This document shows, piece by piece, positions 6,975-36,620 of a DNA stretch of 64,000 bases. Location of the stretch: assembly GCA_016201505.1 (NCBI GenBank), contig JACQCQ010000013.1, forward strand, positions 5,285 through 69,284, given 5' to 3'. Source of the DNA: Candidatus Sungiibacteriota bacterium. GTDB taxonomy: Bacteria; Patescibacteriota; Minisyncoccia; Sungbacterales; JACQCQ01. The position numbers and the translations under genes are program-made. Below the pieces are notes generated by a model that was not told the DNA's origin, did no database searches, and saw only the letters and a list, made by a program, of their open reading frames with translations. Every line of letters begins with the position of its first letter. Within the stretch, counting starts at the first letter, position 1.

Positions 6975-6994
6975 GATTGATTCATCAAAAAATA

Positions 6995-7050
6995 AAAACA
7001 GAGTTGTGCCATCTTCAAATCTCAAAAATAGCGCAACTCTGTTTTCTTTT
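6995..7050 (+). terminator. Hairpin (aaaacagagttg / caactctgtttt, large loop) followed by cttttaaa
   Basis: Inverted repeat at 6995-7006 and 7034-7045, downstream of the 6974 stop. Confidence 0.4.
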
Positions 7051-7061
7051 AAATGAAATGA

Positions 7062-17840: not shown

Positions 17841-18155
17841 CAGGCTATTTTAAGTGCTCCATACCCTGAACGAAATCCGAACGCATTTTCGGGAAACCCC
17901 CGACGAATGAAGCCGCCCCGCCGCCGCTCGCTACCACTCGCCGCACCACAGAAAAATACTCTTTGCTCTTTTCGTTTTGCGCGCGCCCGATTTTTTCTTC
18001 TCTTAATGAAAAGAGTATTTTTCTGTGGTGCATTGCTTTGACAAGCAAGGCGGCGGGGCTGGCCTCTATTTTTTGCAAGAACACGGCGGAATTCCCCCCA
18101 CACCCCCCTTCCGCCGTGTTCTTGCGGGGACGGACGGAATTTTTGGCGGCGGCTA
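17841..18155. repeat. GC-rich repeat R1 copy A (inverted partner at 21998..22203), carrying a nested 107-bp insertion
   Basis: Sequence from 17841 onward equals the reverse complement of 22203 downward, except for an insert at 17926-18032. Contains long internal hairpins (gcaagaacacggcggaa...ttccgccgtgttcttgc and ccgccgccttgc-tttgacaa-gcaaggcggcgg). Confidence 0.75.
17946..18028. mobile_element. MITE-like 83-bp element with 19-bp terminal inverted repeats (ccacagaaaaatactcttt ... aaagagtatttttctgtgg), nested in R1 copy A only
   Basis: Perfect terminal inverted repeats seen directly. Absent from R1 copy B. Confidence 0.45.
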
Positions 18156-18163
18156 ATCAAGTA

Positions 18164-19222
18164 TTAAGATTGCTTAAAATACTCATTCAACTGATTGACA
18201 AATTCCTTTGTGTCTAAAAAATAATTTGGGTATGCTTTCCTTAACTCTTTTGCTGTGTCTGCAGATACAAGCACTATATCCCTATCTTCTTTATTTTTTA
18301 ACATCCTCTCTTCAAGCTTTGAGTATTCTGAGTTTGCAAATTCTTCTTGAGATTTTTTAAAAGCTGAAATTTTCAATTCTCTTGTTGTGAGGTCTAGGTT
18401 TAGAAGATAGAAATCAAATTTATCTTTAGCCTCTTTCTCAAAGTTCTCGATTATTTTATGAATTCTCGCCCACTCGTTCATTTTTTTAACAACTTTTAAT
18501 TGTCTCGCCAATGCCTGGACTTGTTCTCGTAACTCGGCTTTATCGGTGGGTGTATTCGGCACCGAGGGCGTGTTTTCCATATTCGCAAATGCAGAGCTAA
18601 CCAATCTGAAGAAATCCATCCACTCTTTTTGACCTTCGTTTGATTTAATTGCTTGTCTAGTAAAATGGTCAACTGTTTCAACGGCTGTAGCCCAATAGTG
18701 CTGTAAATATGTTCTTATTTGTATTTCAATTAGTAGTCCATCATATGCATTACTTTTATCGCTGTAATATTTATAAACAAAATGGAAACTTCTATATCCG
18801 TCAGGTTTTGGATTCGTTATATAATCTTTCTTATTTGATAATTTATGTTTCAGGCCCCTGCTTTTTTCGTAAAGTCCAACAAGTTCATTAACTTTCTGAA
18901 GGTTTGGCAAAACCGATCTGCAGCCGCCAACATCTTGCATTCTTGACATCTTCATTTTGCTAGTCTGATCACGCTTGAGCTTCTTAATTATTGATGAGAC
19001 GCGCTTGAGCCGCCGCGTAACTATTGCCGATGAATCAACTCGTTTTGAAATTCGTTTTAGTCTCACGGCAAACGTATGCAGTGGAAAACTATGAGATGAA
19101 CGCCAATTAGTCAAGATATCGAGAGCATTGCTTATTTCTTCGGACGAGCTACTCGAAGAAATAAGCACATCTCCCGCTTTATTTACCTGATTCTTCGAAA
19201 AATTTAATTTGGTCCATCCCAT
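18164..19222 (-). CDS. RelA/SpoT-domain nucleotide pyrophosphokinase (toxSAS-like) with a ~150-aa C-terminal helical extension; candidate CapRel-type fused toxin-antitoxin
   Basis: RelA/SpoT synthetase motifs: ISNALDILTNWRSSHSFPL, RLKRISKRVDSSAIVTRRLKR, MQDVGGCRSVL (DxxGxR), PKPDGYRSFHFV, EIQIRTYLQHYWATAVE. 352 aa, versus ~210 aa for housekeeping SAS. Confidence 0.7.
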   Translation of the reverse strand: MGWTKLNFSKNQVNKAGDVLISSSSSSEEISNALDILTNWRSSHSFPLHTFAVRLKRISKRVDSSAIVTRRLKRVSSIIKKLKRDQTSKMKMSRMQDVGGCRSVLPNLQKVNELVGLYEKSRGLKHKLSNKKDYITNPKPDGYRSFHFVYKYYSDKSNAYDGLLIEIQIRTYLQHYWATAVETVDHFTRQAIKSNEGQKEWMDFFRLVSSAFANMENTPSVPNTPTDKAELREQVQALARQLKVVKKMNEWARIHKIIENFEKEAKDKFDFYLLNLDLTTRELKISAFKKSQEEFANSEYSKLEERMLKNKEDRDIVLVSADTAKELRKAYPNYFLDTKEFVNQLNEYFKQS

Positions 19223-19261: not shown

Positions 19262-20431
19262 TTACCGATTTCCTTTTGCTCGATTGTGGGTCTTGCACAA
19301 CATCTCACAATTTTTCGTTGAAGTAGCACCACCCTTACTCCACGCTGATACATGATCTGCTTCCATTTCGCTAAAACTCCAAACCTTGCTCTTATTGGCG
19401 TCATGTCCTATCGCGCAATGTGAACAATTTGATTTCTCTTTAGTTTCCGCCTCACTTGTTTGTTTCGCGTAGACAGATCTCTTGGTCGCCTCATCAAAAA
19501 TTCGGACATCTAGCAATTTCGTATCAACTGAGCCGCCGAAAATATATTCAAAAATACCTTTTCGGTTTTTTACATACGGATCGCTATAAAGTTTTTGCAC
19601 CGCCTTTGAAATTTTAGCTGGGTCGTAAGACTTCTTGTGATACTCCTCATACAAGCGCCCCCACTCTAGGCCGCACATCTCGCTCTCTACATCTGTAAAT
19701 ACACTCGAAACCCAATCAATCACGCTATTGAAATATGTTTTTAGCTCTTTAATGTTTGTATCTTTGCGGTGACGACTCATGTAATCGTCAATATTCCCCT
19801 TACTTACCCAATCTAGCGCTCTCTCAAAAAATGCCTGTCGAGCCGCACTACCCTTTATGTATACGCTCCATTTTTGGATATTGGCATTTTGACTATTACT
19901 AAACTCCTCCTTGCCGAGCGTAACGAATGGCCCAGAATAGATAGCATTTAACAACTCTTGTGGAACGAGAGGTACTCCAGCGATATTTATAGTTTTGAAC
20001 CACTCCTTTATTTCACTTTCTGCGCCCTCGCATTCGTAAATAAGCAAAGGAGTTTTCAAAATTCTACTCTGCTTGTCTTTTGCCATGCCGCTAAAATATT
20101 GTTCCATTCCATTTTCGTCTTTTATGGCAAACTTGTCAGTTACAAACCGTCCGAGACTAGTGATGCGTTGTTGGCCGTCTAAAACTTCTAGATTGTCGGC
20201 AGAAACTTTATTGAAATAAATTAATCCTATCGGGTATTCTTTGAGGACTGATTCAATAACAGCTATTTCTCTTTTACCGCCATCAGACGCATAAATATAA
20301 TTTCGCTGGTACTCCGGCTGAATGGTGAGTTTGCCAGACAAACCAAATAAACCCTTGCCCTCGAGTTGGTTATAGATAAATCCATCGCAGATCTCTTTGA
20401 CAGTTATATTAGTTTTTAAAATTGTCTTCAT
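19262..20431 (-). CDS. DUF262 (ParB/GmrS-like NTPase) fused to a C-terminal HNH/His-Me finger nuclease; GmrSD-family type IV-like restriction endonuclease
   Basis: [15 protein letters not shown] motif. C-terminal CSHCAIGH...[11 protein letters not shown]...[18 protein letters not shown] motif. Confidence 0.75.
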
Positions 20432-20432
20432 A

Positions 20433-21647
20433 CTATTTTTTCTTATGTCTTATAAAAATTCTTTGGTAAGCAGACTGGACGATTCGACCTTCTTTGTTAA
20501 TAAAGTAGTTCTTTTTTTCATCATTTCCAACTAAATTAGCATTTTCATTTGTCTTTCCTCCAGATGATCCTGTTTTCATGCCATCCTGCCTTACCTCCCA
20601 ATAATCATAATAATTTTTTGTGTCAGGAACCTCATCATGGCACCCTCTTTGGGTCGCTCCTAAAATTTCAAACTGGTCCGGATTATATTTATTCAAAAAA
20701 CTAATCGGCACGCCCATCACACCTTTATAGTCGCTGGGAATATTTTTCACTAATGACACTTCTATTACATCATAATTGTCATACTTTTCGAATGGTTTTT
20801 TTGTTACAAACTTTATAACATCAGATTTAGTCATTAGCGGTAGTGACTGATGTCTGCGCCCATGGTCAAGATTCGTAAACCATAAGCAACCTTTCACAAA
20901 TAAAAATTTCTTTCCTTCCTCTATTTTTGAATTTGCGACATTTTCTCTTATCGGGTAATCGTCTGGTACTTGGAACCACTTATTTCGCCCGTCCATTGTG
21001 ACTCCTAGCCACAACTTATTATTCTTGATGAGTGGAAAAATTTCTTTATAAGTAATCGCATTTAAATTACCGATAATGATAAAATTTCTATTGTAATCAA
21101 AAAGCTGCTTAATATATGGTCGAAACAAGCTGAATGGTGGATTTGTTACTACAATGTCTGATTGTTTAAGAAGATTTATACATTCATCACCACGAAAGTC
21201 GCCATCGCCGTCTAGAGGCGTCCATTCGTTGTGTTTGTTTGCCTTTAACTGCTTGGCAACATCTTTCAAATTAAACTCGCCGTCTCCGTCTATATCATGC
21301 ACTTCGTTGATAATAAATTTGTTGGCAGTCACCTTTGGACGGCCTTTTGATTTTGTGAGCGTTTTGTCATCACCAAATAATCCTAGTTGTGTGTTGGCTA
21401 CGGGCGAGGGCTTGTAGCTGGTGGTAATAAGCTGTTTCAATCCGAGCTTGTTGAAATTGAGTACAAAATAGCGAAAGAAATTGCTCTCAAACGGATCGTC
21501 GCAGTTGCAATATACTACCTTACCGCGGAATGTATTAGCATTATATTCTAAATACGCTTCAATTTCTTTTTGAATATCGTCGTACTGAGTATAAAACTCA
21601 TCACTCTTTGCTTTTTTTGCTTTGTTAAAACTACTGCTGTTTGCCAT
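20433..21647 (-). CDS. N6-adenine (or N4-cytosine) DNA methyltransferase, EcoRI-methylase-like family
   Basis: N-terminal [14 protein letters not shown] and catalytic VVTNPPFS (NPPF) motif. Confidence 0.7.
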
Positions 21648-21649
21648 AA

Positions 21650-21865
21650 CTATTTCTGTATTAAATCATCAACGCCAACATTCAATGCCTTTGCAATTTT
21701 AGACATCGTTTCAATGGTCGGATTGATGTTTGCTCCCGATTCAATCTTAATGATTGTATTGTAGGTAACATCAGCAAGTTTCGAGAGCTTATCTTGCGAA
21801 ATACCGAGTTTGTTTCGGTATTTTTTGATATTATCAGCAATTTTTGAGTTGTTGCTTGCGCTCAT
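21650..21865 (-). CDS. XRE/Cro-type HTH regulator (RM controller C-protein-like)
   Basis: 71 aa with KKYRNKLGISQDKLSKLADVTYNTIIKIESG. First gene of the minus-strand cassette. Confidence 0.7.
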   Translation of the reverse strand: MSASNNSKIADNIKKYRNKLGISQDKLSKLADVTYNTIIKIESGANINPTIETMSKIAKALNVGVDDLIQK

Positions 21866-21997: not shown

Positions 21998-22203
21998 AGG
22001 AAAAGAAATTAGCCGCCGCCAAAAATTCCGTCCGTCCCCGCAAGAACACGGCGGAAGGGGGGTGTGGGGGGAATTCCGCCGTGTTCTTGCAAAAAATAGA
22101 GGCCAGCCCCGCCGCCTTGCTTTGACAAGCAAGGCGGCGGGGCGGCTTCATTCGTCGGGGGTTTCCCGAAAATGCGTTCGGATTTCGTTCAGGGTATGGA
22201 GCC
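21998..22203. repeat. GC-rich repeat R1 copy B (inverted relative to copy A)
   Basis: Reverse complement matches 17841-17925 plus 18033-18155. Confidence 0.75.
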
Positions 22204-22337
22204 AAATTGGATGATACGAGTTCACCGCCTCGTCCCTCGACTTTGCTCGGGACTCGGCGGGCAAATCGGCAAGAATTTTCCACGACTTTTTGGGTTCAAA
22301 ACAAATCGCTTGCGGGCGCAAAACGTGGTTCGCCGCG
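22198..22337. repeat. Inverted repeat IR2, left copy (~140 bp, ~96% identical to the reverse complement of 23804-23940)
   Basis: Alignment done by eye. The ORF-track peptides share MIRVHRLVPRLCSGLGGQIGKNFPRLFGFK on opposite strands. Confidence 0.75.
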
Positions 22338-22451: not shown

Positions 22452-24011
22452 ATGAAATACTTTTTATACATCAGAAAATCAACGGACGAGGACGATAGAC
22501 AAGTTTTGTCGCTGGAAGCACAGGAGACGGAACTGAAGGAATTTGCCTTGCGGGAAAATCTTTTTATCGCCGCGACTTTCCGCGAATCGCAAACCGCCAA
22601 AGAGCCAGGCAGACCGATTTTCAACGACATGCTCAAACGAATGGAACGCGGCGAAGCCGAGGGGATTTTAGCGTGGCACCCCGATAGATTGGCGAGAAAC
22701 AGCATAGACGGCGGACGGATAATTTTCTTGATTGATACTGGAAAAATCAAAGCGCTAAAATCCCCGACATTCTGGTTTGAGCCGACCCCGCAAGGCAAAT
22801 TCATGTTGAATATCGCTTTTGGGCAGTCCAAATACTTTGTGGATAATCTTTCAGAGAATACCAAACGAGGGTTGCGTCAAAAATTGCGCCGAGGCGAATT
22901 GCCAGGCTACGCGCCACTTGGCTATTTGAATGACTTGCTAAAGCACACGATGTATAAAGACCCCGAAAGATTTCGCCTCGTTCGCAAGCTTTTTGAATTA
23001 TACGCAACCGGAAATTATTCTCTGAAAGATTTGCGGAAGTTGATAACTTCCGCCGGATTGTTGAGCCGCAAAGGAAATATGCTTTCCGTCTCCAATATCC
23101 AAAGTATACTCTCTACCTCATTTTATTACGGCGTATTCAAATACAACGGCGAACTTTATGACGGAAAGCATGAGCCAATGATTGCAAAGAAACTTTTTGA
23201 AGCGTGCCAAAAAGTGATGGCGGATCGTTCGCGCCCGAAAAAGCCGAGCCAAAAAGAATATCCGTTTAGAAATTTGCTCAAATGCGGCGAATGCGGATGC
23301 GCCATCACTTCTGAAACGCAAAAGGGGCATAACTATTATCGCTGTACGAAAAAGAAAGACAAACAATGTTCGCAAAAATATATCCGGGAGGAAGTTTTGG
23401 CACGCCAGATTTTGGACGAGATTCAAAAAGTTTCTTTGCCTCCCGCTTGGGCGGAATGGATGCTTACGGAATTGAACAAGGAAGAAGCGGAAGCCGCCCA
23501 AGCGGGTGTCGTTTTCGCTCAAAATCTCAAGGACAAAATAAAAGAGCTTGAAGGAAAGCTCGACCTGCTTTTAGACGCTCATTTGGACGGCACGATTTCG
23601 CGCGAGGAATACACCGCCAAGAAAGAAAAATTCATCACCGAAAAGGCCGAGCTTTCCGAAAAATTGAAGGATTTTGAGCGAAGCGGCAATCATTGGCTCG
23701 AACCGGCCCGGCAATTCATTTTAGCGGCTCTACAAGCCAAAAATATCGCTTTGCAAGAAAATCCCGTCGCGGGACGGGATTTTCTCAAAAGAATTGGCTC
23801 GAACCACGTTTTGCGCTCGCAAGCGATATGCTTTGAACCCAAAAAGTCGTGGAAAATTCTTGCCGATTTGCCCGCCGAGTCCCGAGCAAAGTCGAGGGAC
23901 GAGGCGGTGAACTCGTATCATCCAATTTGGCTCCGCGCCTTGACCGACGTTAGAACCGCCTTGATGAGCCTAACGGGCTACTCGCCGTTTACGATTGTGA
24001 GAGGATGGTAA
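22452..24011 (+). CDS. Large serine recombinase (resolvase N-terminal domain, recombinase domain, zinc ribbon, coiled coil)
   Basis: Catalytic YIRKSTDEDDRQ with the Ser nucleophile, CGECGCAITSE...YYRCTKKK zinc ribbon, 519 aa. Confidence 0.85.
   Translation: MKYFLYIRKSTDEDDRQVLSLEAQETELKEFALRENLFIAATFRESQTAKEPGRPIFNDMLKRMERGEAEGILAWHPDRLARNSIDGGRIIFLIDTGKIKALKSPTFWFEPTPQGKFMLNIAFGQSKYFVDNLSENTKRGLRQKLRRGELPGYAPLGYLNDLLKHTMYKDPERFRLVRKLFELYATGNYSLKDLRKLITSAGLLSRKGNMLSVSNIQSILSTSFYYGVFKYNGELYDGKHEPMIAKKLFEACQKVMADRSRPKKPSQKEYPFRNLLKCGECGCAITSETQKGHNYYRCTKKKDKQCSQKYIREEVLARQILDEIQKVSLPPAWAEWMLTELNKEEAEAAQAGVVFAQNLKDKIKELEGKLDLLLDAHLDGTISREEYTAKKEKFITEKAELSEKLKDFERSGNHWLEPARQFILAALQAKNIALQENPVAGRDFLKRIGSNHVLRSQAICFEPKKSWKILADLPAESRAKSRDEAVNSYHPIWLRALTDVRTALMSLTGYSPFTIVRGW
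23804..23940. repeat. Inverted repeat IR2, right copy, lying inside the 3' coding end of recombinase 1
   Basis: Reverse complement of 22198-22337. Confidence 0.75.
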
Positions 24012-24021
24012 ACAGACAATT

Positions 24022-24306
24022 TTAACTAGCGTTGGCTTTAACCAACTTTATAGCTTCGAGGGTCTCCGAAACAGCAGCAGATTTGGCATTAACAATCTTT
24101 ACTTTATCCATACCATATTTCTCATTGAGTTGAGACAATAACTCGTCGGCAAATGATGGGGAGAGAACCTCAACAGCAGAGAAATCTAACACAACATCTT
24201 CTTTGTCAGCACTCCCATTGATAATCTGAAACATTCTCAAAACAGCCTCTCTAGCCGAAGGTCTGCCATTCAGTACAGTTCCAAATTTGGATATTTGAAT
24301 AATCAC
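24022..24306 (-). CDS. STAS-fold (DUF4325-like) small protein, anti-sigma-antagonist-like
   Basis: 94 aa with VVLDFSAVEVLSPSFADELLSQL, resembling SpoIIAA/STAS. Paired with the upstream GHKL ATPase. Confidence 0.55.
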   Translation of the reverse strand: MIIQISKFGTVLNGRPSAREAVLRMFQIINGSADKEDVVLDFSAVEVLSPSFADELLSQLNEKYGMDKVKIVNAKSAAVSETLEAIKLVKANAS

Positions 24307-24314
24307 CGATGTGT

Positions 24315-25178
24315 TTAGTTATATTCTACCACTAACGAGGCTATAGTTCCTAAGGTACGCTTAGCCTGCCTACTTCTTTTACCATCCTTGTCTACCACCA
24401 CAAGACCTGCCCCCGAATGAATCCTTACACTGCCATGAAACTTATTAAGAGTCCAGTCCTGCACCACAAGCAATCCGTTACCACGCTTCTCTGGCATTCT
24501 CCCCGTAATACCGCTTAACCCCAACTCTATTGCTTCTATATCATCCTTAAGATCGGGTTTACTAAGTCTTAGCGAACCGAGGAACCCTCCCCCTGGGTCT
24601 GCCACAGAAATCTCTATGCGCTTTTTCGTGGGATAGTTTTGCGCGGTTATGATAGCTCCTCGAATCTCCGTCGGCCAGAGACCCTCGTTATGATCGAATA
24701 CATTATTCCCTAACTCTCCTACCATAGCCGTAGCTCTTGCCTCATCATCGGCATTCATCCCAAAATTTGTAAACATTTTCCTAATCCTAGACTGTAGTCT
24801 CGCATTGAAGTCATCCCGAAAAGAACAGTGGAGAATTTCATGCAGATTTGGGTTGTCCAACTCATTCATTAGAAGGTCGCTCATTGGCCTCATATCTTCT
24901 GCATACCCTAAATTAGTCATTAGTGAATCAAAGTGCATTCTTTTTAGATAGGCAAGAACATCAGGGCTGTCTGGCAATATAATCTTCTTATTCTGTAGAC
25001 TCTTATTCTCAATAGCTTTTAAGCAAACCAGCCCTATTATCCAAGGATCGCACCAAGTGCATGAACTCAAATCAATAATTTTATCTAGAAATGATTCAGT
25101 CTCCCCGATAGTCTCAAATGTGAAATCCATATCTTCTATAAATGGGCGGCTACTCGCCTCAAACCCCAAAACAATCAA
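24315..25178 (-). CDS. GHKL-family HATPase_c protein (SpoIIAB/RsbW-like kinase fold) with an N-terminal domain of unknown function
   Basis: N-box ELGNNVFDHN, G1 ADPGGGF, G2 GITGRMPEKRGNGL. Confidence 0.65.
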   Translation of the reverse strand: MIVLGFEASSRPFIEDMDFTFETIGETESFLDKIIDLSSCTWCDPWIIGLVCLKAIENKSLQNKKIILPDSPDVLAYLKRMHFDSLMTNLGYAEDMRPMSDLLMNELDNPNLHEILHCSFRDDFNARLQSRIRKMFTNFGMNADDEARATAMVGELGNNVFDHNEGLWPTEIRGAIITAQNYPTKKRIEISVADPGGGFLGSLRLSKPDLKDDIEAIELGLSGITGRMPEKRGNGLLVVQDWTLNKFHGSVRIHSGAGLVVVDKDGKRSRQAKRTLGTIASLVVEYN

Positions 25179-25261
25179 TATAGCTAATTCAATAGCATTC
25201 TATCAGTATTCCCCAAGCTGATCGAAAACATCTTCCAGATTTTGACCGCAGAGCTTAGGTT

Positions 25262-26674
25262 TTACGCCAAAATCATTCTCTCAACTCGCTTTTGCGCGTT
25301 TGCTAAAACTTCGGTCGCCTGAATGCGCAAGGTTCGCATTTTTGAGTAAGACGACCGAACACCGTCTACTATTTTTTCCTGAACTGGCATGGGCGGTAAC
25401 GGGAATTTGAATGATTTGAATTCTTCAGAGTTTATATTTGGCTGACCAGCTGGTCTCTGAATGAGATTTTTCCACAATTCATAATATCGCGTTTGAGTGA
25501 GACAAAAAACGTAATCTGGGATTGCCTTCTGCGAATTTATTTTGAAACGGATCATATAACCAGCAAAAATAGCTTTACCCACCTCGTCCTTATAGATATA
25601 CGTTTTTCCTGCGGTTGCTCCGCTTCTGGCAAACAGTAAATCGTCTTGCTGCAGAATATATCTATCTTCAATTTTCTCTGCTGTTTTCCAGCTATCCGCT
25701 CGTAATTCTCCGTCATCTTCAATATCGGTAATTCTTATATAGCGCATGTCGCGCAATGGATTGCCATCAACAGCTCTCTCGTTTGCACCATATTGTGGTG
25801 GCTCGGATAAAACTTCTTCAAGCGTGGACAAAGAGTATTTCGACTCTAAGTGTGAATAAATGGAATAATCGCGCAAGTAGATCGGGTCGAGACGATTTGT
25901 AACCTCATCACTCCAGACCTCAAATACTCGCCGTACCCCCCCCTCTGGGATTTCTATACCAAGCTCGCCAAGAACGAAGCCGTCAATCGAGGCGATGATT
26001 TTTTGGATTTCTGTTTCTTTCTTTCGTTTTTCTGCATATGCCACTCGTATTGTTTCTACTACTTCCTTTTGAATTTTGATAGACGGAATAGGAAGTTTGA
26101 CTGATCTGATTTCGTCAAGATTGATGTTTGCTTGGACAGATGGCCGAGAAAGGCGATTGGTTTGGATTTTTCCGATTTTTGAATTCAAAACTGTTGCAAT
26201 ATAGTTGTTATCATACCCGTCTTTCAAAACAATTCGGGCAAGCGCCTGATTTATATTTGCTTCGCCTATACCATCTTGAACTATTGCGACTAACCCTATC
26301 GTACCGGCCATCGAGAGTAATAAATCACCCTCTTTGAGTTGTGTTCTTTTAAGAATTCCACTATGAATCTCCGGTTTGATGTAAAGCACATCCGATAAAT
26401 CAATATGCCCATCTTCGAGATTGGTAACACGAATAAAAGGGATGCCACCTTCTTCTTTGGAGATGTAAGCATCGCCACCCGCTAAAGGCGTTGCACCACT
26501 TCCGATATAATTCGCAATTTCTCCGAGTGTTTTTACATCTTTTCTGTTCGAGATTTTTTGTTCGAACTCTGTGAAATATGGCAAATAAAAACGTGGGTCA
26601 AGTCGTTTTTCAACCTTATCGCTCCAAATCGAAAATACCTGTGTCGCTAAATTATTATTTTCTGAATTTTTCAT
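25262..26674 (-). CDS. hsdS: Type I restriction-modification specificity subunit HsdS (two target-recognition domains)
   Basis: Two repeated TRD halves with conserved linker helices (LGEIANYIGSGATP..., LEEVLSEPPQYGAN...). ORF runs to 26749; start chosen at the internal Met closest to the hsdM stop. Confidence 0.8.
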   Translation of the reverse strand: MKNSENNNLATQVFSIWSDKVEKRLDPRFYLPYFTEFEQKISNRKDVKTLGEIANYIGSGATPLAGGDAYISKEEGGIPFIRVTNLEDGHIDLSDVLYIKPEIHSGILKRTQLKEGDLLLSMAGTIGLVAIVQDGIGEANINQALARIVLKDGYDNNYIATVLNSKIGKIQTNRLSRPSVQANINLDEIRSVKLPIPSIKIQKEVVETIRVAYAEKRKKETEIQKIIASIDGFVLGELGIEIPEGGVRRVFEVWSDEVTNRLDPIYLRDYSIYSHLESKYSLSTLEEVLSEPPQYGANERAVDGNPLRDMRYIRITDIEDDGELRADSWKTAEKIEDRYILQQDDLLFARSGATAGKTYIYKDEVGKAIFAGYMIRFKINSQKAIPDYVFCLTQTRYYELWKNLIQRPAGQPNINSEEFKSFKFPLPPMPVQEKIVDGVRSSYSKMRTLRIQATEVLANAQKRVERMILA

Positions 26675-28427
26675 ATTCTTCCAAAATTTTATACAGGTCA
26701 TTTTGTGTTTCGGTTCGTCCTGTCGCGTCATAGCCGATATGCTCAGCAATTGCCATAAAAATTTTATAACGCTTTAGTTTCTCCTTCATACCATTGCGCC
26801 TCACGAAAACAAGCGACGACTTCACGCCCGCGCCAAAGTGAGTAAAAGCAAATTGTGGAAGCGAAACAACGGCTAGAATCTGACATCGCTCCATAAGAAA
26901 ATCGCGGACATATTGGAGTGATGAGTTGGTCAAAATCCCATCCGGCAAAACAATCGCCATTTGGCCAGTTTCCGGCTTCAAAAAATCTACACACCTCTCG
27001 ATGAACAATATCTCGGTTTTTTGGTTGTCGCGGATTTTTTTGCCATTTTGAGCAAGCACAAATTTTTCGAGATAAGGGTGTTCGCTCCGCTTAACCGTAG
27101 CACCGAATGGCGGATTGGTAACGATGAAGTCAAAACGATTTCGTGCAAAGCCAGGATTTTTTGCCTTCATCTTTTCAATATCATTGAGCGCGTCATGGCC
27201 GATGACGTTCGTGTGGCCATCGTCGTGAATAATCATATTCATTTTGGCTACACGCGCGATGGAGTCATTTATTTCAATACCGAAAAGATTGTTTTGCGCA
27301 AAATCATGCCAATACCGCCACTGCTCTTTTTCCTCATTGGGGTAATACTCCGCCGCCTGATGTCGGACTTCGTCGAGCGTATGCAAAAGAAAGCCGCCAG
27401 AACCGCACGCAGGGTCAAGCACAAGGTCGTCATTCTTTATGCTCATCATTTTGACGGCAAAACTAACGATATTGCGCGGGGTGAAAAATTGACCGCTTTT
27501 GCCCTTGAAAAAATCCTCCATAAAATGCTCAAAGGCGACACCTTTGGTATCAAGGTCGGTTTTATCAAGAGAAATGCCCTGTAAGTGCTCGACGACGGTA
27601 TACAATTCTTCCGGCTCGATTTTCAAATCTTCCTTAAAGACTTCGGGATCAATCTTTTTCGCTTCAAGATAAATGGCGTTGATACGCTTATAGACGCTCT
27701 CCGCACTCTCGTGTGTTTTGATCTGAAAATCATAAGGGTCGCCCGTGCGGCGTCCCTTTTTTTCATCGCGAATTTTTACAAAAATAATTTTGGCGAATTC
27801 ATCAAACGCGGTGGTTGGCGCACGCTTGCCGCCCGCCCAAAGTGTATCGTGGCACTTTTGGAATGCCCGTTTTAAGTCCTCTTGGTCAATCGGCTTCAAA
27901 TCCCAATGCTGATCGCCTTTTTTGTAGCGAAATTCCTCAACTTTGCCGTAGGAAATCGGAATATCAGTGATAGTTGCCTTTTCTGGCTCTTTGTCGTTCC
28001 AAACGCCGGTTTCCATCGCGCGACGAGTATTGCCCGCTACACAATTCGAGAATGGAGCACGAAGAACGCGTGCATTGGCAATGGCTTGTTTTGTTGCTTG
28101 TTCAAATTCCGCATCGGAAATGCCATCTTTTTTACACTCAACGACGATGTAGGGCTTACGTTGAGCATTATCTTCATAAATAACAATGTCCGCGTAGCGT
28201 TCTGGTGTGCGGTCTGGCATTTCCACTTCAAGTCCGATACGCGCAGCAGGATAGTTGTATTTTTCGATAAGGTCAAAATAGTATTCAGCACGAACTTTTT
28301 CTTCGGGATCGCTTAGGTTTTCCTTGTGTCCAGACGGCAAGTATTCAATCTTCGCCCCACCGTTATGCAAACGGAAGTACCCCTTTCGTTCTCCATCTTT
28401 TAGAATTTTTTCAAATGCGGACTGCAT
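26655..28427 (-). CDS. hsdM: Type I restriction-modification N6-adenine methyltransferase HsdM
   Basis: LVLDPACGSGGFL (motif I), TNPPFG (motif IV), HsdM N-terminal domain. Confidence 0.85.
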   Translation of the reverse strand: MQSAFEKILKDGERKGYFRLHNGGAKIEYLPSGHKENLSDPEEKVRAEYYFDLIEKYNYPAARIGLEVEMPDRTPERYADIVIYEDNAQRKPYIVVECKKDGISDAEFEQATKQAIANARVLRAPFSNCVAGNTRRAMETGVWNDKEPEKATITDIPISYGKVEEFRYKKGDQHWDLKPIDQEDLKRAFQKCHDTLWAGGKRAPTTAFDEFAKIIFVKIRDEKKGRRTGDPYDFQIKTHESAESVYKRINAIYLEAKKIDPEVFKEDLKIEPEELYTVVEHLQGISLDKTDLDTKGVAFEHFMEDFFKGKSGQFFTPRNIVSFAVKMMSIKNDDLVLDPACGSGGFLLHTLDEVRHQAAEYYPNEEKEQWRYWHDFAQNNLFGIEINDSIARVAKMNMIIHDDGHTNVIGHDALNDIEKMKAKNPGFARNRFDFIVTNPPFGATVKRSEHPYLEKFVLAQNGKKIRDNQKTEILFIERCVDFLKPETGQMAIVLPDGILTNSSLQYVRDFLMERCQILAVVSLPQFAFTHFGAGVKSSLVFVRRNGMKEKLKRYKIFMAIAEHIGYDATGRTETQNDLYKILEEYEKFRK

Positions 28428-28428
28428 A

Positions 28429-28653
28429 TTATTTCTTTTTTAAGAGTTTCAGAATGTCATCTTTTTGATAGCGTCTATCCTTCCTAATTCCAATACGAAT
28501 AGCTTTAAGAATCCCTTTTGTATCCCATTGGCGAAGCGTATTCGGATGACATTTCAGAACGGCGCAAGCCTCTTTAAGCGTTAGAAGTTCGGGGATACCC
28601 CTCTTCTCCTGTTTAGTCCTAGGCATTGATTCTAACTTAACATTTGCTAACAT
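28429..28653 (-). CDS. Excisionase-family/MerR-like HTH DNA-binding protein (Xis-like)
   Basis: IPELLTLKEACAVLKCHPNTLRQWDTKGILKAIRIG. Confidence 0.5.
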   Translation of the reverse strand: MLANVKLESMPRTKQEKRGIPELLTLKEACAVLKCHPNTLRQWDTKGILKAIRIGIRKDRRYQKDDILKLLKKK

Positions 28654-28682: not shown

Positions 28683-29396
28683 ATGGCCAACGAAGTAGCC
28701 CCTATAGAGAAACTTAGCCAAATAAACTTCCTTAGCGTCTGCGATGTCGCTATGGATATTTTAGAACAGCTCCAGCTTTCTACTGAAGATAAAGTAACTA
28801 TTAAGCTGATACGAAATCTAATAAGATTCTCTATCCTGCTGCCAGCCAAAGCGCCGAACCTTATGGACGAATATGGCGACAACCGGATGAGGGCAGTAAT
28901 TTATCTGGAAGAAATTGGTGTTATTGCACACTATAAAGTCCTTAGTGACTATAACCACTACGAAGCAGAAATCTTAATAGACTTAAATCGAGGATCATTC
29001 AATTCATTCTATGACAAGTTGGGAGAAGTATACGAAAAAAGAGTTGTGGAGCCAGCCAAGAAGAACGAAAGCCAAGGCGATACCTCGCGAATTAAATCCT
29101 CTGATTTCTCATACTCCAAAGATGATGAAGTATGCTTTCGTGGACTTAAGGCAAAAATACCAGGCAATACCAACCAGTCAGGAATATGTAAATTCCTGTT
29201 TGGGCAAAACCTCGGCAGTTGGTTTGATTGGGATACCGTTTATCAAGAGATTAAGGGTGCCGAACCTATGAAAAATGAGAGCAAGGTCATCGCAGATGCA
29301 GTCGAAGCGATAAACCAAAAGACTGAACAAACAATCGGTCTCAAAATTATTGAATTTAAGGATAAAAAGTTGAGATTGAACCCACGATTATCTTGA
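28683..29396 (+). CDS. Hypothetical protein
   Basis: 237-aa ORF with no recognisable motif. Confidence 0.45.
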   Translation: MANEVAPIEKLSQINFLSVCDVAMDILEQLQLSTEDKVTIKLIRNLIRFSILLPAKAPNLMDEYGDNRMRAVIYLEEIGVIAHYKVLSDYNHYEAEILIDLNRGSFNSFYDKLGEVYEKRVVEPAKKNESQGDTSRIKSSDFSYSKDDEVCFRGLKAKIPGNTNQSGICKFLFGQNLGSWFDWDTVYQEIKGAEPMKNESKVIADAVEAINQKTEQTIGLKIIEFKDKKLRLNPRLS

Positions 29397-29678: not shown

Positions 29679-30908
29679 ATGGACACTGTTCAAATACGAA
29701 TCCGAGGACTTAACAAATTCCATGTAGCGACTTGGGCGTTGTTTAACCAGGATTTTCATCCTCGAAAGTTTGCCGAACTCTCGCGCAACGAATTGACCCA
29801 AGCGAGGAACCCAAGAGTCCCGTACTTGCGGCATTTTGTCTTGCACGGAGGAGATGGCGAGCTTTTCCGCCCGAAAGTGGAGATATTTGAATCGGCAAAC
29901 GTAGAAAAAGGCCTAACCGAATATGACCTCGTAATCACGTTCTCTATCCCCCAATTGCTTAATGAGAACAGCCTCCAAGAAATTGCTCCCAGCGATAGTT
30001 ACCGAGTTTTCGATACTCTCCGCGAACGGCTAAGCAACCTTGGAATCTCGACATTAACAGAACATATCAAGAATGGGACTGTATCGGTAGCCCATTTCTG
30101 CAAGAATATCATCCTGCCGCCGGAAATCCGATTCAGGAGTGTCTCGGCGGAACTCTCAAAAACCGACATGGGAAAAGCATACGATACGTCCGAAGAAATC
30201 ATGCAAAGAGGGACTAATAACAACGAAATCGTGCGGATACGTTGCGGCACACGGGAATGGATTTGTTATAACAAGATCGAGGACTTAAAAAACCATAAGG
30301 GCAAAGGCGCGGGGAGAAGGCGCACGCAACTTGAAAAAGACCTTTTTGCGGTTTACGCCCTTGATGGCCTAGAAGTCTTCCGATACGAGTACCGGCTCAA
30401 TAAAGCCCAAACCATAAAAAGCGAAATCAATAGCATCCTCGGAAGGCCATACCCGACGCCAATAGTGTTTAACGATTTATTTACAGAAGGACTTTGGAAA
30501 ACAGTTTTGCTTAACTCTTGGGAAAAGCTAATTATGCGTCCAGAAAACCAGCTTGCCCTCCTTGGGGGCGATGACAAGCTGGCACTATTGCATCACATAC
30601 TCCACAAGGCAGAATCGAAAGAAAGAAGTGCGCATAGCCAAAACCAAGCACTCGTAAGCTACTCACTTGCTGTAGCCATCAAAGACCACGGAGTTAAGAC
30701 GATAAGGCAAGAGCTGGCTAGAGGGTGGTCAAATAAAGCCGATGACAGGCTTACGGAGAAGCTAGAAGCAGCGGCGAGCGCAATGGAGGATTTATCTTTT
30801 TCGGATGGGTTATCTTTTATAGACCGCGAGCTTAGGCGATTTAACAGCACTACCTTGGATTCGTTTCCCAAGAAAATGGCGCTTGATAAGTCCAAAAGAA
30901 CCCTGTAA
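29679..30908 (+). CDS. Hypothetical 409-aa protein of the island; possibly an element replication/maintenance protein (unsupported guess)
   Basis: ORF only; no confident motif. Confidence 0.45.
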   Translation: MDTVQIRIRGLNKFHVATWALFNQDFHPRKFAELSRNELTQARNPRVPYLRHFVLHGGDGELFRPKVEIFESANVEKGLTEYDLVITFSIPQLLNENSLQEIAPSDSYRVFDTLRERLSNLGISTLTEHIKNGTVSVAHFCKNIILPPEIRFRSVSAELSKTDMGKAYDTSEEIMQRGTNNNEIVRIRCGTREWICYNKIEDLKNHKGKGAGRRRTQLEKDLFAVYALDGLEVFRYEYRLNKAQTIKSEINSILGRPYPTPIVFNDLFTEGLWKTVLLNSWEKLIMRPENQLALLGGDDKLALLHHILHKAESKERSAHSQNQALVSYSLAVAIKDHGVKTIRQELARGWSNKADDRLTEKLEAAASAMEDLSFSDGLSFIDRELRRFNSTTLDSFPKKMALDKSKRTL

Positions 30909-31049: not shown

Positions 31050-32684
31050 TTGTGTTTTATGAAAGAAAATCTTAATAAAATTTCATATTTTATTTATCCC
31101 AGAAAATCTTCCGAGCAGGAAGATAGGCAGGTTGTTTCCATTGAGTCTCAAACTAGAGAACTTCAAGAAGTTGTTGTGAGAGAATCTTTGGCTGTCAAAG
31201 ACACGCTCCCCGAATCTCATTCAGCGAAATCTCCAGGCCGCCCGATTTTTAACAAAATGGTTCAAAGAATCCAGGAGGGAGAGGCAAACGGCCTCTTAGT
31301 CTGGAACGCAAGCCGTATCGCCCGTAATGCGGTTGATACAGGCCAAATTATCCATCTTCTTGATACGGGAAAGCTACTTGAGGTAAGAACCCCTAGCCAG
31401 ATATTCAGAAACACCCCAAATGATAAATTCTTACTCAATCTCTTTTGTAGCCAAGCGAAACTTGAAAATGACAATAAGGGCGTGGATGTAAAACGGGGGC
31501 TTAAAACAAAAGCGCAAATGGGTATGTATCCCTGTCACGCGACGGCAGGATATATGAACGATAAGACTGCCGAGAAGGGCTTTAAGCAATTGCATCCAGA
31601 CCCCGAACGCTTTGAGCTAGTCCGAAAGATTTTTGACCTAATCCTTACCGGAGCGTATTCGCCGATGCACGCCTTAAGAATCGCAAACGAGGATTGGAAA
31701 TTCAAAATGCCGAGCGGCAAACCTATGGGGCGCAGTACCCTGTATAACATTTTGACCCGCCCGATTTATTACGGGATGTACGAATACCCTATCGGTAGTG
31801 GGAATTGGCATCGGGGCATCCACAAGCCAATGATTACGGAAGATGAATATGACAGGATTCAAATGCTCTTAGGCAGGCAGGGTAAGCCGCGCCCTAAGAG
31901 CCACATCTTTGATTTTGCCGGAATGATGCGATGCGGAGAATGCAATGCGATGATTACGGTTGAAGAAAAATACAAACACCAAAAGAACGGAAAAATCCAT
32001 CACTATATTTATTACCATTGCACCAAGCGAAAAAATCCTAACTGCTCTCAAGGCTCAATTGAAGAAGCGGAGCTAAATAGGCAGATAAATGCGGCCATTG
32101 ATAAACTCGTTATCCCGCCCGAATTTCACGATTTTGGCATGAGGTGGTTCAGGGCGCAGAACGAGAATGAGTCATCGAGCAGAAATGCTATCCTCGCTAC
32201 CCGTCAGGAAGCCTATAAGCTCTGTATCAAGAAAATTGACGGGTATATTGATATGCGAGCGGCCAAGGAAATTACAGCAGAGCAGTATGCCCAAAGGATA
32301 GCCCCCTTGGAACGCGAGAAAGCTCAACACGAGGAGTTTTTTGCCGATATGGGTCAAAGGATAGACCAATGGATTCAAACAGCAGACGAGATGTTCACTT
32401 TTTTGGACGATGCAAAGGAAAAGTTCAAAACCGGAACCCTGGAGACAAAAAGGCAGATACTTTCGACTCTTGGTTCGAACCTCGTGATAAAAGACAAAAT
32501 ACTCACACTGGACGTGCAAAATACGCTCTTGCCAATGGAAGTCGTCTCGGAAGAGGCTAAAAAGATTTATGCACGGTTCGAACCTGTCAAAAGTGCCATA
32601 GATAAAAGGAAACTGGAGCTTGCTTACTCCAAGAGTCCACGAATGCTCCGGCGGCAGGACTCGAACCTGCGACCTGGGGATTAA
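31050..32684 (+). CDS. Large serine recombinase, paralog of 22452..24011; its 3' end overlaps tRNA-Asn in antisense
   Basis: YFIYPRKSSEQEDRQVVSIESQ catalytic region, CGECNAMITVEEK...YYHCTKRKNPNC zinc ribbon, 544 aa. Confidence 0.85.
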   Translation: MCFMKENLNKISYFIYPRKSSEQEDRQVVSIESQTRELQEVVVRESLAVKDTLPESHSAKSPGRPIFNKMVQRIQEGEANGLLVWNASRIARNAVDTGQIIHLLDTGKLLEVRTPSQIFRNTPNDKFLLNLFCSQAKLENDNKGVDVKRGLKTKAQMGMYPCHATAGYMNDKTAEKGFKQLHPDPERFELVRKIFDLILTGAYSPMHALRIANEDWKFKMPSGKPMGRSTLYNILTRPIYYGMYEYPIGSGNWHRGIHKPMITEDEYDRIQMLLGRQGKPRPKSHIFDFAGMMRCGECNAMITVEEKYKHQKNGKIHHYIYYHCTKRKNPNCSQGSIEEAELNRQINAAIDKLVIPPEFHDFGMRWFRAQNENESSSRNAILATRQEAYKLCIKKIDGYIDMRAAKEITAEQYAQRIAPLEREKAQHEEFFADMGQRIDQWIQTADEMFTFLDDAKEKFKTGTLETKRQILSTLGSNLVIKDKILTLDVQNTLLPMEVVSEEAKKIYARFEPVKSAIDKRKLELAYSKSPRMLRRQDSNLRPGD

Positions 32685-32717
32685 CAGTCCCTCGCTCTAC
32701 CACTGAGCTACGCCGGA
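32646..32717 (-). tRNA. tRNA-Asn (anticodon GTT)
   Basis: Manual fold: acceptor TCCGGCG/CGCCGGA, D arm GCTCAGTGGTAGAGC, anticodon loop CTGTTAA, T arm GCAGGTTCGAGTCCTGC, discriminator G. Confidence 0.8.
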
Positions 32718-36187: not shown

Positions 36188-36620
36188 GAGAAGTAATGAG
36201 ATTGCTATCAGTATAAATTTTCCCACTAAGCCAATTATCTATAACGCGCTGGCTGTGCGGAAAAACTGGCACCGGAAGTTTATCGAGAGCGTACCAACGC
36301 CAATTTCTCGAATGCTCGGGCTCGGCGTCGTACGACTCGCCCGAGTGACATTCTGCCAAAAGCCCAATGGAAACATAATGTTTGTCATATAAAATATCAT
36401 TTCCAATCGAGACAACACCACAAAGCGTAATATCCTGGAGTCCGGTTTCTTCAAGCACCTCGCGTTTGGCCGCTTCTTCAAACGTCTCGCCAAATTCTAA
36501 ATGGCCGCCCGGAATTTCAAACGTGCCGGCTCCGTGATTCGAAAGACGTTCGCCCAATAAAATTTTATTGCCGCGCTTTACAATAATCCCAATCCCAACT
36601 TTTGGTCGGTCGCCCTCCAT
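36180..36620 (-). CDS. NUDIX hydrolase
   Basis: Nudix box GGHLEFGETFEEAAKREVLEETGL. ORF track extends to 36848, overlapping the upstream sigma gene; start placed at the internal MEGDRPKV. Confidence 0.75.
   Translation of the reverse strand: MEGDRPKVGIGIIVKRGNKILLGERLSNHGAGTFEIPGGHLEFGETFEEAAKREVLEETGLQDITLCGVVSIGNDILYDKHYVSIGLLAECHSGESYDAEPEHSRNWRWYALDKLPVPVFPHSQRVIDNWLSGKIYTDSNLITSHV

What the first reader, a model, noticed from the sequence alone, without database searches (positions are those of the whole stretch)
24022..25178. GHKL ATPase plus STAS(DUF4325-like) gene pair in the hsdR position of a type I RM locus: candidate undescribed partner-switching-like defence module
Two co-oriented minus-strand genes sit immediately downstream of hsdS (25262) with only 8-bp and 83-bp gaps. 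One is a 287-aa protein with a complete Bergerat ATP-binding fold: N-box ELGNNVFDH, G1 DPGGG, G2 GxGNGL. These are the same motifs as the anti-sigma kinases SpoIIAB/RsbW. The other is a 94-aa STAS-fold protein (VVLDFSAVEVLSPSF) resembling the SpoIIAA anti-sigma antagonist. The locus has hsdM and hsdS but no hsdR. Defence genes are commonly embedded in type I RM loci. A kinase/antagonist pair in a defence island, with an extra 130-aa N-terminal domain of unknown function on the ATPase, is not a described system to my knowledge. It could sense infection by partner switching or phosphorylation.
Basis: partly seen in the sequence, partly recalled or inferred. Interest (0 to 1): 0.8.

Follow-up and report, generated by a model that had tools for sequence, protein, structure and literature searches.

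The report
CapK/VapK-type kinase–STAS switch, two-gene form
The two genes encode a serine-kinase/STAS-substrate pair of the DNA-damage-sensing CapK–CapS / VapK–VapS family described in 2026, here in a stripped-down two-gene form with no visible output part, sitting in a mobile defence island of a candidate-phyla-radiation bacterium, not acting as a stand-in for a missing restriction subunit.

Summary

This architecture matches VapK+VapS and, less closely, CapK+CapS (Chambers et al., EMBO J 2026). Those are ssDNA-activated kinases that phosphorylate a STAS partner to release a repressor or a PIN toxin. Homology is supported by profile, BLAST-chain and fold evidence.

The pair here lacks CapK's HTH, CapS's wHTH, VapS's inhibitory tail and VapC. 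In 26 related loci, mostly Patescibacteria, only the two genes are conserved. None carries this hsdM/hsdS; 4 of 27 loci adjoin some fused nuclease–methylase R-M gene. The "hsdM" has its own HsdR-N-type nuclease-like domain and is closest to type IIB RM.BsaXI, so no hsdR slot is being filled.

Verdict: a new two-gene variant of a known kind, output unknown, moderate interest.

The parts
24315..25130 (-). Kinase gene 'K' (271 aa; the ORF can be extended to TTG 25178): STAS-like N-domain plus GHKL serine-kinase domain, CapK/VapK superfamily
24831..25130 (-). K N-terminal domain (about residues 1-100). Motifs: IDLS..(W/F)26.D.P29-W30 and Y61-LKRMHF.
   Evidence: Aligns with the STAS domain of CapK (YLNRLGFFD). 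Position 26 is aromatic in 21/26 homologues; P29 and W30 are invariant. By my own ungapped reading of the motifs (inference, not in the HMMER alignment), position 26 lines up with CapK W68 and VapK F54, the ssDNA-contact residues. hhalign against the S family was not significant (E 0.15).
24318..24818 (-). K GHKL domain (about residues 105-271). N-box codons 24687-24716, G1 box 24585-24599, G2 box 24471-24485.
24022..24306 (-). STAS gene 'S' (94 aa, GTG start), Pfam DUF4325, bare STAS domain
   Evidence: Pfam 40.4 bits. Model and RsbS/STAS matches. VapS is itself DUF4325 at 62.7 bits. S-family profile against VapS scores 13.8 bits, E 2e-6 for one comparison.
24154..24162 (-). Codons S49-P50-S51: candidate phospho-acceptor at the N-terminus of helix alpha2
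   Evidence: [S/T]-P-S-[F/Y] is kept in all 26 S proteins. The helix starts at residue 50 in the model. VapS S48 is followed by Pro, and CapS S54 precedes Phe.
25131..25261 (-). Intergenic region between hsdS-like and K, with a promoter-like site CTGATA-18-TATATT at 25206-25177
   Evidence: The consensus match is no more frequent than in shuffles, so this is only compatible with separate transcription.
25262..28653 (-). Upstream R-M operon (context, not part of the conserved cassette): HTH 28429-28653, nuclease-like + N6-methylase 26655-28427, specificity subunit 25262-26749
   Evidence: Below the MADS cut-offs. HSDR_N_2 domain with D80...E97-x-K99. Best solved relative is RM.BsaXI.

Best explanation
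K (24315-25130) and S (24022-24306) form a self-contained kinase-substrate phospho-switch of the CapK/VapK-CapS/VapS superfamily. It is most like VapK+VapS without the toxin.

Shown here:
- K is an N-terminal STAS-like domain fused to a GHKL domain. That domain keeps every ATP/Mg-binding residue and is structurally closest to the anti-sigma serine kinases.
- S is a DUF4325 STAS protein with an invariant [S/T]-P-S motif at the start of helix 2.
- The two genes are always adjacent (2-31 nt apart) and diverge together.
- No other gene or flanking DNA element is conserved with them.

Inferred from the characterised relatives:
- Single-stranded DNA, produced by DNA damage, restriction or phage replication, binds between the two K domains and activates the kinase. 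The aromatic residue at position 26, P29-W30 and the basic hairpin 170-171 would be involved.
- K phosphorylates S on S49 (or S51).
- Phosphorylation changes what S binds.

Because S has neither CapS's DNA-binding domain nor VapS's toxin-blocking tail, its partner is not encoded in the cassette. It must be either a trans-encoded or locus-specific protein, or K itself.

In this window the cassette is cargo of a roughly 15-kb island at tRNA-Asn that also carries two R-M systems. It lies next to a type IIB-like R-M operon but does not replace HsdR.

For: Family: S and VapS both belong to Pfam DUF4325.

Homology of K:
- hhalign of the K profile against VapK gives probability 91.5%, E 8.5e-7 over 189 columns.
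- hmmsearch of the K profile gives CapK 21.6 bits and VapK 20.1 bits.
- VapK and CapK hit many distant K relatives by BLAST, down to E 7e-17 and 1e-13 across both domains.
- tblastn of K hits a Cytobacillus plasmid 'ATP-binding protein' (E 9e-8) that is followed by a MarR-type gene and then, 0.8 kb on, a ThiF/DUF6527 operon. This is the CapKS-Bub layout.
- A profile of the sister clade pulled bona fide CapK/CapS loci from metagenomes.

Cassette behaviour:
- S follows K in 32 of 32 fetched loci that extend past K, and also in L065 and L067.
- K and S identities to the window proteins correlate (r = 0.77, p = 3e-5, n = 22).
- Only K and S recur across 25 loci.
- No conserved flanking DNA or small ORF was found.

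Functional residues are conserved.

Mechanism of the relatives: PMC13373217.

Defence link:
- Both proteins hit consecutive segments (143-264 and 335-385) of one PADLOC DrmA profile.
- The island also carries a GmrSD_N+HNH/methylase pair and a RelA_SpoT PDC-S33 gene.
- 4 of 27 distinct loci adjoin a fused nuclease-methylase R-M gene.
Against: - No biochemical data exist for this clade.
- Similarity to CapK and VapK is remote (about 24% identity), and K fails Pfam HATPase_c.
- The STAS nature of the K N-domain rests on alignment to CapK and on the authors' annotation. A direct profile comparison with the S family was not significant.
- The phospho-acceptor cannot be fixed between S49 and S51 from sequence.
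- No output component was found, so the defence role is by analogy only.
- Most relatives lie among housekeeping genes.
- No relative of the K clade was found in viral contigs or phage records.
- ssDNA activation was shown directly only for CapK. For VapK it rests on a prediction and one mutant.
Confidence: 0.7

Rival explanations
1. The pair is a two-gene toxin-antitoxin-like or abortive module in which the kinase itself is the effector. S holds K in check as a pseudo-substrate. ssDNA-triggered phosphorylation of S frees K to phosphorylate or sequester an essential host protein and arrest growth.
For: The cassette is strictly two genes with no conserved third partner or flanking element. Its distribution is sporadic, in 25 loci found by a pattern scan of 185,579 species genomes. 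Contexts vary, and one locus shows cassette-like insertion between duplicated segments. The related VapKSC acts as a TA system. Tight coupling and correlated divergence fit this too.
Against: No toxicity data exist. In all characterised relatives the kinase is the sensor, not the effector. The K N-domain and GHKL surfaces show no extra effector domain. GHKL anti-sigma-type kinases are highly substrate-specific.
Confidence: 0.12
2. The pair is a locus-specific regulator of the adjacent restriction-modification enzyme. S binds the nuclease-methylase (or its S subunit), and phosphorylation by K gates restriction.
For: In the window the pair follows the R-M operon after 131 nt. In L065 the pair sits within 8-17 nt of an MTase+Mrr_cat fusion. 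In L010/L006 a type IIG enzyme lies about 1 kb downstream, and in L023 one lies about 0.6 kb upstream. All four R-M partners are fused or type IIB/IIG-like. Of 443 capKS loci, 88 follow an R-M system.
Against: 23 of 27 loci have no R-M neighbour. The four R-M genes belong to different families, so a specific protein contact is unlikely to be conserved. None of the 33 loci L001-L033 has a homologue of this hsdM/hsdS. The methylase already has its own nuclease-like domain.
Confidence: 0.1
3. The pair is an ordinary housekeeping partner-switching module of the RsbW/RsbV type, in which K acts as an anti-sigma factor for a sigma factor encoded elsewhere.
For: The best structural matches are SpoIIAB and RsbW for K, and RsbS and RsbV-like proteins for S. 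Many relatives lie among housekeeping genes. JGI labels some homologues 'anti-sigma regulatory factor'. One locus has a PP2C-like gene directly upstream.
Against: No sigma-70 family appears among the 25 most frequent Pfam families of 150 neighbour proteins, which are those matched by two or more members. The pair is patchily distributed and here lies in a low-GC island bounded by a recombinase and tRNA-Asn. K carries the extra N-terminal domain typical of CapK and VapK, which anti-sigma kinases lack. Sequence links run to CapK and VapK, and no Pfam HATPase_c_2 hit was found.
Confidence: 0.08

Closest known systems
VapKSC (VapK kinase, VapS STAS antitoxin, VapC PIN toxin; Chambers et al., EMBO J 2026, PMC13373217; PDB 9Z7O)
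   Same: The kinase has STAS + GHKL domains without an HTH (VapK 302 aa, K 271 aa). The STAS partner is a Pfam DUF4325 protein encoded immediately downstream. A conserved Ser/Thr followed by Pro sits at the start of helix 2 (VapS S48; S49 here). An aromatic residue lies at the position I align, by inference, with VapK F54..
   Different: There is no VapC or any PIN gene next to the pair in the window, and no third gene is conserved in 26 related loci. S ends with the STAS domain (86-99 aa in the family) and lacks the VapS C-terminal helix (residues 94-116) that blocks VapC. Identity is only about 24%. The host range is different (Patescibacteria)..
CapK-CapS (HTH-STAS-GHKL kinase plus STAS-wHTH repressor controlling CBASS, Bub, Thoeris and other operons; same paper)
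   Same: The STAS-GHKL core is homologous. The gene order is kinase then STAS protein. The position directly after an R-M operon is seen in 88 of 443 capKS loci.
   Different: K has no N-terminal HTH and S has no winged-helix domain, so S cannot be a DNA-binding repressor. No co-directional immune operon follows; a convergent serine recombinase gene ends 10 nt from S. CapS is not picked up by Pfam DUF4325, whereas S is.
SpoIIAB-SpoIIAA and RsbW-RsbV partner-switching modules
   Different: There is no cognate sigma factor or conserved PP2C phosphatase in the locus. K has an additional N-terminal domain of about 100 aa. The pair is mobile-island cargo rather than part of a developmental or stress operon.
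MADS (methylation-associated defence system, mad1-8; Maestri et al. 2023/2024)
   Same: The upstream HTH, methylase and specificity genes give their best NCBIfam or PADLOC hits to mad1, mad2 and mad5.
   Different: Scores are far below the NCBIfam cut-offs (318 against 720 bits; 107 against 400). mad6-8, which the authors required for detection, are absent. Mad4 is a DUF4276 Toprim homologue (mad3's domain was not looked up), and neither K nor S hit the PADLOC mad3 or mad4 models, so K-S is not mad3/mad4.
DISARM DrmA variant (PADLOC profile PDLC02567)
   Same: K residues 152-278 and S residues 36-87 match consecutive segments (143-264 and 335-385) of this 1750-position profile, each at E about 7e-5. 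This suggests that some DrmA helicases carry a fused K-S-like module.
   Different: No helicase, DUF1998 or other DISARM gene is present here. The member sequences of the profile could not be inspected.

Membership tests
VapKSC | Kinase with STAS + GHKL domains and no HTH, homologous to VapK | tested here: met
   hhalign probability 91.5%, E 8.5e-7. hmmsearch 20.1 bits. BLAST chain through distant relatives. Model with an N-terminal alpha/beta domain plus GHKL.
VapKSC | DUF4325-type STAS protein encoded directly downstream, with a conserved Ser/Thr at helix 2 | tested here: met
   Pfam DUF4325 for both S (40.4 bits) and VapS (62.7 bits). 8-nt gap. [S/T]49-P-S51 in 26 of 26 sequences.
VapKSC | C-terminal extension of VapS (residues 94-116) that inhibits VapC | tested here: not met
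   S is 94 aa and its last helix (77-93) is the STAS alpha3. Family lengths are 86-99 aa.
VapKSC | VapC-like PIN toxin as third gene | tested here: not met
   No PIN hit on the ORFs scanned around the pair. No conserved third gene in 25 loci. One relative (L001) has a PIN_3 gene two genes downstream, which is not a conserved feature.
VapKSC | ssDNA-contact aromatic residue (VapK F54, CapK W68) | tested here: inconclusive
   Position 26 is W/F in 21 of 26 homologues, P29 and W30 are invariant, and positions 170/171 are basic in 20/26 and 19/26. The alignment in this segment is by motif (my inference), not statistically supported.
VapKSC | Protection against phage; toxin release on phosphorylation | not testable with these tools
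   Needs experiments.
CapK-CapS | N-terminal HTH on the kinase | tested here: not met
   K starts directly with the STAS-like domain, and no HTH was found by Pfam.
CapK-CapS | Winged-helix DNA-binding domain on the STAS protein | tested here: not met
   S is 94 aa, STAS only. CapS (182 aa) shows HTH_24.
CapK-CapS | Encoded upstream of, and regulating, a co-directional immune operon | tested here: not met
   A convergent recombinase gene ends 10 nt after S. Neighbours of relatives are variable and mostly housekeeping.
SpoIIAB/RsbW-type partner switching | GHKL serine-kinase fold with N, G1 and G2 boxes | tested here: met
SpoIIAB/RsbW-type partner switching | Cognate sigma factor (and PP2C phosphatase) in the same operon | tested here: not met
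   None next to the pair in the window; rpoD at 33054-34271 lies outside the island. No sigma-70 family appears among the recurrent neighbour families. A PP2C-like hit was seen only in L065 (21.1 bits).
Type I R-M with K-S replacing HsdR | HsdM + HsdS that depend on a separate translocase-nuclease, with conserved linkage of the substitute to hsdMS | tested here: not met
   None of the 33 loci L001-L033 has homologues of this hsdM/hsdS. The methylase has an HSDR_N_2 domain (49.5 bits) with D80...E97-x-K99. Its best solved match is type IIB RM.BsaXI at E 5.7e-40, against about 1e-20 for HsdM. K-S has no helicase or nuclease domain.
MADS | mad6, mad7 and mad8 present; mad2 and mad5 above family cut-offs | tested here: not met

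The most novel reading that the evidence does not exclude
The bare K-S cassette may be a complete, portable DNA-damage/ssDNA sensor whose output is not a dedicated effector gene. One possibility is that the phospho-state of the minimal STAS protein directly gates whichever nuclease-methylase fusion (type IIB/IIG) it lands next to. That would be phosphorylation control of restriction, here of the BsaXI-like enzyme at 26655-28427. The other possibility is that the kinase itself arrests the cell. Either would be a new output logic for the CapK/VapK family, and a first signalling-type defence module described for Patescibacteria.
Probability: 0.15. Interest if true: 0.7.

Novelty: new variant of a known kind. 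Interest (0 to 1): 0.4.

Why it matters
The CapK/VapK kinase-STAS module was described only in 2026, with two outputs: a repressor and a PIN toxin. A full-library profile search shows that the underlying superfamily is much larger, with 2,799 cluster representatives at E <= 1e-3.

This window shows a third arrangement. The module is reduced to its two core genes and spread through ultra-small Patescibacteria genomes. In a minority of loci it sits beside fused nuclease-methylase R-M enzymes.

Finding what the minimal STAS protein binds would show how this sensor is wired to new outputs. It would also show whether restriction and later responses are coupled by phosphorylation. As it stands, the finding extends a known family and corrects the 'missing hsdR' reading. 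It is not a new category.

Tried and rejected
1. MADS membership. The upstream genes resemble mad1, mad2 and mad5, but scores fall below the cut-offs and mad3/4/6-8 are absent. Mad4 is a DUF4276 Toprim homologue, and K-S did not hit the mad3/mad4 models.

2. HsdR replacement. Rejected on lack of conserved linkage and on the methylase's own nuclease-like domain.

3. A hidden third component. All-against-all clustering of neighbour ORFs, PADLOC and Pfam scans of 150 neighbours, tblastn of individual adjacent unknowns, and blastn/tblastx of 300-350 nt flanks all found nothing recurrent.

4. Phage or plasmid carriage. There was no tblastn hit of K in 50,697 phage records and no close-clade relative in IMG/VR. 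Only remote CapK-like hits appeared on three Cytobacillus plasmids. PHROG 3364 (unknown function) matches K at E 1.7e-20, but I could not inspect its members.

5. Direct sequence proof that the K N-domain is STAS. hhalign against the S family was not significant.

6. Sampling the sister clade's neighbourhoods. The alignment was too divergent for one scan. The metagenome scan returned CapK/CapS loci instead. The only sister-clade contig is 1.9 kb: K-like, then a 117-aa weak DUF4325 protein, then an AlbA_2 fragment.

7. Solved-structure sequence searches with K alone or with its profile gave nothing significant. VapS was seen only at E 0.24.

8. Rfam found nothing in 17-33 kb except tRNA-Asn.
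Full report
**Observation.** The window carries two tightly packed minus-strand ORFs. One spans 24315-25178 (287 aa from a TTG). The other spans 24022-24306 (94 aa from a GTG). They are 8 nt apart.
- The public record of this contig (P0001, 'Candidatus Sungbacteria bacterium', 271 aa) and all 82 homologues start at the ATG at 25130, reading MD[FIL]TF.
- I therefore take the gene as 24315-25130. The gap to the stop of the specificity gene (25262) is then 131 nt.
- No HsdR-like gene was found among the window's ORFs of 450 aa or more.

**What the proteins are.**
- Pfam and NCBIfam do not recognise the large protein. Its AlphaFold2 model is confident (pLDDT 87, pTM 0.87).
- The first 100 or so residues form a separate alpha/beta domain with the motifs IDLS..(W/F).D-P-W and Y-LKRMHF.
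- The small protein is a Pfam DUF4325 'STAS-like' protein (40.4 bits). Its model (pLDDT 81) matches RsbS, TM1442 and prestin STAS domains.
- Helix 2 of the small protein starts at residue 50. The motif [S/T]49-P50-S51-[F/Y] is kept in all 26 partner proteins I aligned.

**The kind is already described.**
- A weak hit of the small protein to PDB 9Z7O 'Escherichia VapS', together with a literature search, led to Chambers et al., EMBO J 2026 (PMC13373217).
- CapK (HTH-STAS-GHKL) is activated by ssDNA. It phosphorylates Ser54 of CapS (STAS-wHTH), which breaks the repressor dimer and de-represses a downstream immune operon.
- In the related VapKSC system, VapK (STAS-GHKL) is proposed to phosphorylate VapS (STAS plus a short C-terminal helix). 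This releases the PIN toxin VapC, and the operon protects against a phage.
- Of 443 capKS loci, 88 lie immediately downstream of an R-M system.

**Homology to that kind.** I took the VapK, VapS, CapK and CapS sequences from the paper's source data.
- The K-family profile aligns to VapK with hhalign probability 91.5%, E 8.5e-7, over 189 columns.
- hmmsearch of the K profile scores CapK at 21.6 bits and VapK at 20.1 bits. The CapK alignment runs from the second half of its STAS domain (YLNRLGFFD against YLKRMHFD) into the N-box and G1 box.
- A full-library profile search found 2,799 cluster representatives at E <= 1e-3, of which only 22 reach E <= 1e-30.
- VapK and CapK hit many of the distant representatives by BLAST, down to E 7e-17 and 1e-13, across both domains.
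- tblastn of K against plasmids finds a Cytobacillus 'ATP-binding protein' (E 9e-8). It is followed by a MarR-type regulator and, 0.8 kb further on, a ThiF/DUF6527 operon. This is the CapKS-Bub layout.
- A profile of the sister clade retrieved bona fide CapK/CapS loci from metagenomes.
- VapS is itself a strong DUF4325 member (62.7 bits). The S-family profile scores VapS at 13.8 bits, which is E 2e-6 for one comparison.
- By my own ungapped reading of the motifs, VapK F54 and CapK W68 (the ssDNA-contact residues) line up with K position 26. That position is W or F in 21 of 26 homologues and is followed by invariant P29-W30. The hairpin equivalent to CapK K237/K239 is basic (K/R at 170 in 20/26 and at 171 in 19/26). 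This last mapping is motif-level and not statistically supported.

**How it differs.**
- K has no HTH. S has no winged helix and ends with the STAS domain (86-99 aa across the family). It therefore lacks both CapS's DNA-binding output and VapS's toxin-blocking tail.
- No PIN gene lies next to the pair in the window.
- I collected 26 further distinct loci of the close clade. They come mostly from Patescibacteria MAGs: Jorgensen-, Saccharibacteria, Paceibacterota, Microgenomates, Falkow-, Berkelbacteria and WWE3. A few are MAGs labelled Gammaproteobacteria.
- S follows K by 2-31 nt wherever the contig continues. K and S identities to the window proteins co-vary (r = 0.77).
- Clustering of neighbour ORFs shows no other gene shared by more than 4 of 25 loci. 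Those that recur are housekeeping: YchF/Obg GTPases, ABC ATPases and DEAD helicases.
- No conserved flanking DNA or small ORF exists.
- The clade is thus a strict two-gene cassette.

**The R-M context.**
- None of the 33 loci L001-L033 contains a homologue of this window's methylase, specificity subunit or HTH.
- The 'hsdM' carries an N-terminal HSDR_N_2 domain (49.5 bits) with a PD-(D/E)xK-like D80...E97-x-K99 (numbering read directly from the sequence).
- Its best solved relative is the type IIB enzyme RM.BsaXI at E 5.7e-40, against about 1e-20 for type I HsdM proteins. A separate HsdR need not be missing.
- The MADS-like hits of the three upstream genes fall far below the family cut-offs. 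Mad4 is a DUF4276 Toprim homologue, and K and S did not hit the mad3/mad4 models, so K-S is not mad3/mad4.
- An R-M gene does neighbour the cassette in 4 of 27 distinct loci:
  - the window itself;
  - L010/L006, with a 1040-aa type IIG enzyme about 1 kb downstream;
  - L023, with a type IIG fragment upstream;
  - L065, where a 750-aa protein with a marginal PP2C hit, K, S and an MTase+Mrr_cat fusion are packed with gaps of 3, 8 and 17 nt.
- All four R-M genes are fused or type IIB/IIG-like, but they belong to different families.
- In the window the cassette lies in a low-GC segment of about 15 kb. On the right, the segment is bounded by a large serine recombinase gene that overlaps tRNA-Asn, with rpoD and dnaG beyond. 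The segment also holds a second R-M-like cassette and a RelA_SpoT (PDC-S33) gene.
- A second serine recombinase gene, bracketed by 148-157-nt inverted repeats, ends 10 nt from the stop of S and is convergent with it. If an effector once followed S, it is no longer there.

**Mechanism.**
- Shown: the domain make-up, the intact catalytic and acceptor motifs, the strict pairing and co-divergence, the membership of the CapK/VapK superfamily, and the absence of any conserved output gene.
- Inferred by homology: activation of K by ssDNA, phosphorylation of S at S49 (aligned with VapS S48-Pro) or S51 (aligned with CapS S54-Phe), and a phosphorylation-dependent change of S's partner.
- Unknown: the partner. 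I put 0.7 on this reading as a whole.
- Rivals are listed in a separate field, with the result that would refute each. They are a TA-like module with K as effector (0.12), a locus-specific gate of the adjacent R-M enzyme (0.10), and a housekeeping anti-sigma switch (0.08).

**A hint at further wiring.** K and S each match consecutive segments (143-264 and 335-385) of one 1750-position PADLOC DrmA profile at E about 7e-5. This suggests that some DISARM helicases carry a fused K-S-like module. I could not retrieve those sequences.

**Verdict.** It is wrong about the hsdR slot and about the system being undescribed. The pair is a new two-gene variant of a kind published in 2026. Interest is 0.4.

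Noticed in passing
window 17856-18157 and 22008-22202: Inverted repeats (128 nt at 96% and 70 nt at 100%) bracket a four-gene minus-strand cassette. The genes are RelA_SpoT/PADLOC PDC-S33 (18164-19222), GmrSD_N+HNH nuclease (19262-20431), type II methylase (20433-21647) and XRE HTH (21650-21865). This could be an invertible or transposable defence cassette.
   Followed up: partly
window 22176-22332 and 23800-23956: An inverted repeat of 157 nt at 92% (148 nt at 95% by BLAST) flanks the large serine recombinase gene 22452-24011. The right arm lies inside the gene's 3' end, 66 nt from the stop of the STAS gene. Possible invertible segment or terminal repeats of a recombinase-borne element.
   Followed up: partly
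window 31050-32717: A second large serine recombinase (544 aa) overlaps tRNA-Asn (32645-32717, minus strand). rpoD (33054-34271) and dnaG (34424-36226) follow. GC is 36-45% across about 17-32 kb against about 50% in the flanks. This points to an integrated island of about 15 kb.
   Followed up: partly
window 26655-28427: The 'hsdM' has an N-terminal HSDR_N_2 PD-(D/E)xK-like domain (D80, E97, K99). It is closer to type IIB RM.BsaXI (E 5.7e-40) than to type I HsdM. With the separate S subunit it looks like a BcgI/BsaXI-type two-subunit enzyme or a MADS-like front end.
   Followed up: partly
window 28683-29396 and 29679-30908 (+ strand): Two island ORFs (237 and 409 aa) have no Pfam or PHROG match and no relative in any fetched locus.
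   Followed up: partly
L010 4887-5186 / 6753-7052, and 2948, 4556, 5397, 7629: In a Saccharibacteria MAG the K-S cassette lies between a complete NYN gene and a 97% identical 300-nt duplicate of its 3' half. A repeated promoter-like element (…AACGTGGTATAAT…) and a repeated hairpin (AACCCCCGAAAGGGGTTTT) bracket successive cassettes. The layout is array-like, with K-S as its own unit.
   Followed up: partly
L065 5745-10632: A tight four-gene operon. A 750-aa protein has a marginal PP2C hit (21.1 bits against a cut-off of 20.3; its top three PDB sequence hits are all PP2C at E about 0.3). It is followed by K, S and an N6_N4 methylase fused to an Mrr_cat nuclease. Possibly a full phosphatase-kinase-STAS set tied to an R-M fusion.
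   Followed up: partly
L004 11337-13803: In one Patescibacteria chromosome the cassette is followed by a diversity-generating retroelement. This comprises a 205-aa target gene whose 3' part is repeated nearby, a bAvd gene and a reverse transcriptase.
   Followed up: no
L067 2002-3327 and L064 1503-1802: Schlafen/AlbA_2-domain genes lie next to the K-S pair in one close-clade locus and in the only sister-clade contig.
   Followed up: no
proteins P0110 and P0115: Distant members of the same GHKL superfamily carry other N-terminal domains: a MerR-type HTH in P0110 and a cytidylyltransferase-like domain in P0115. This indicates further uncharacterised architectures.
   Followed up: no
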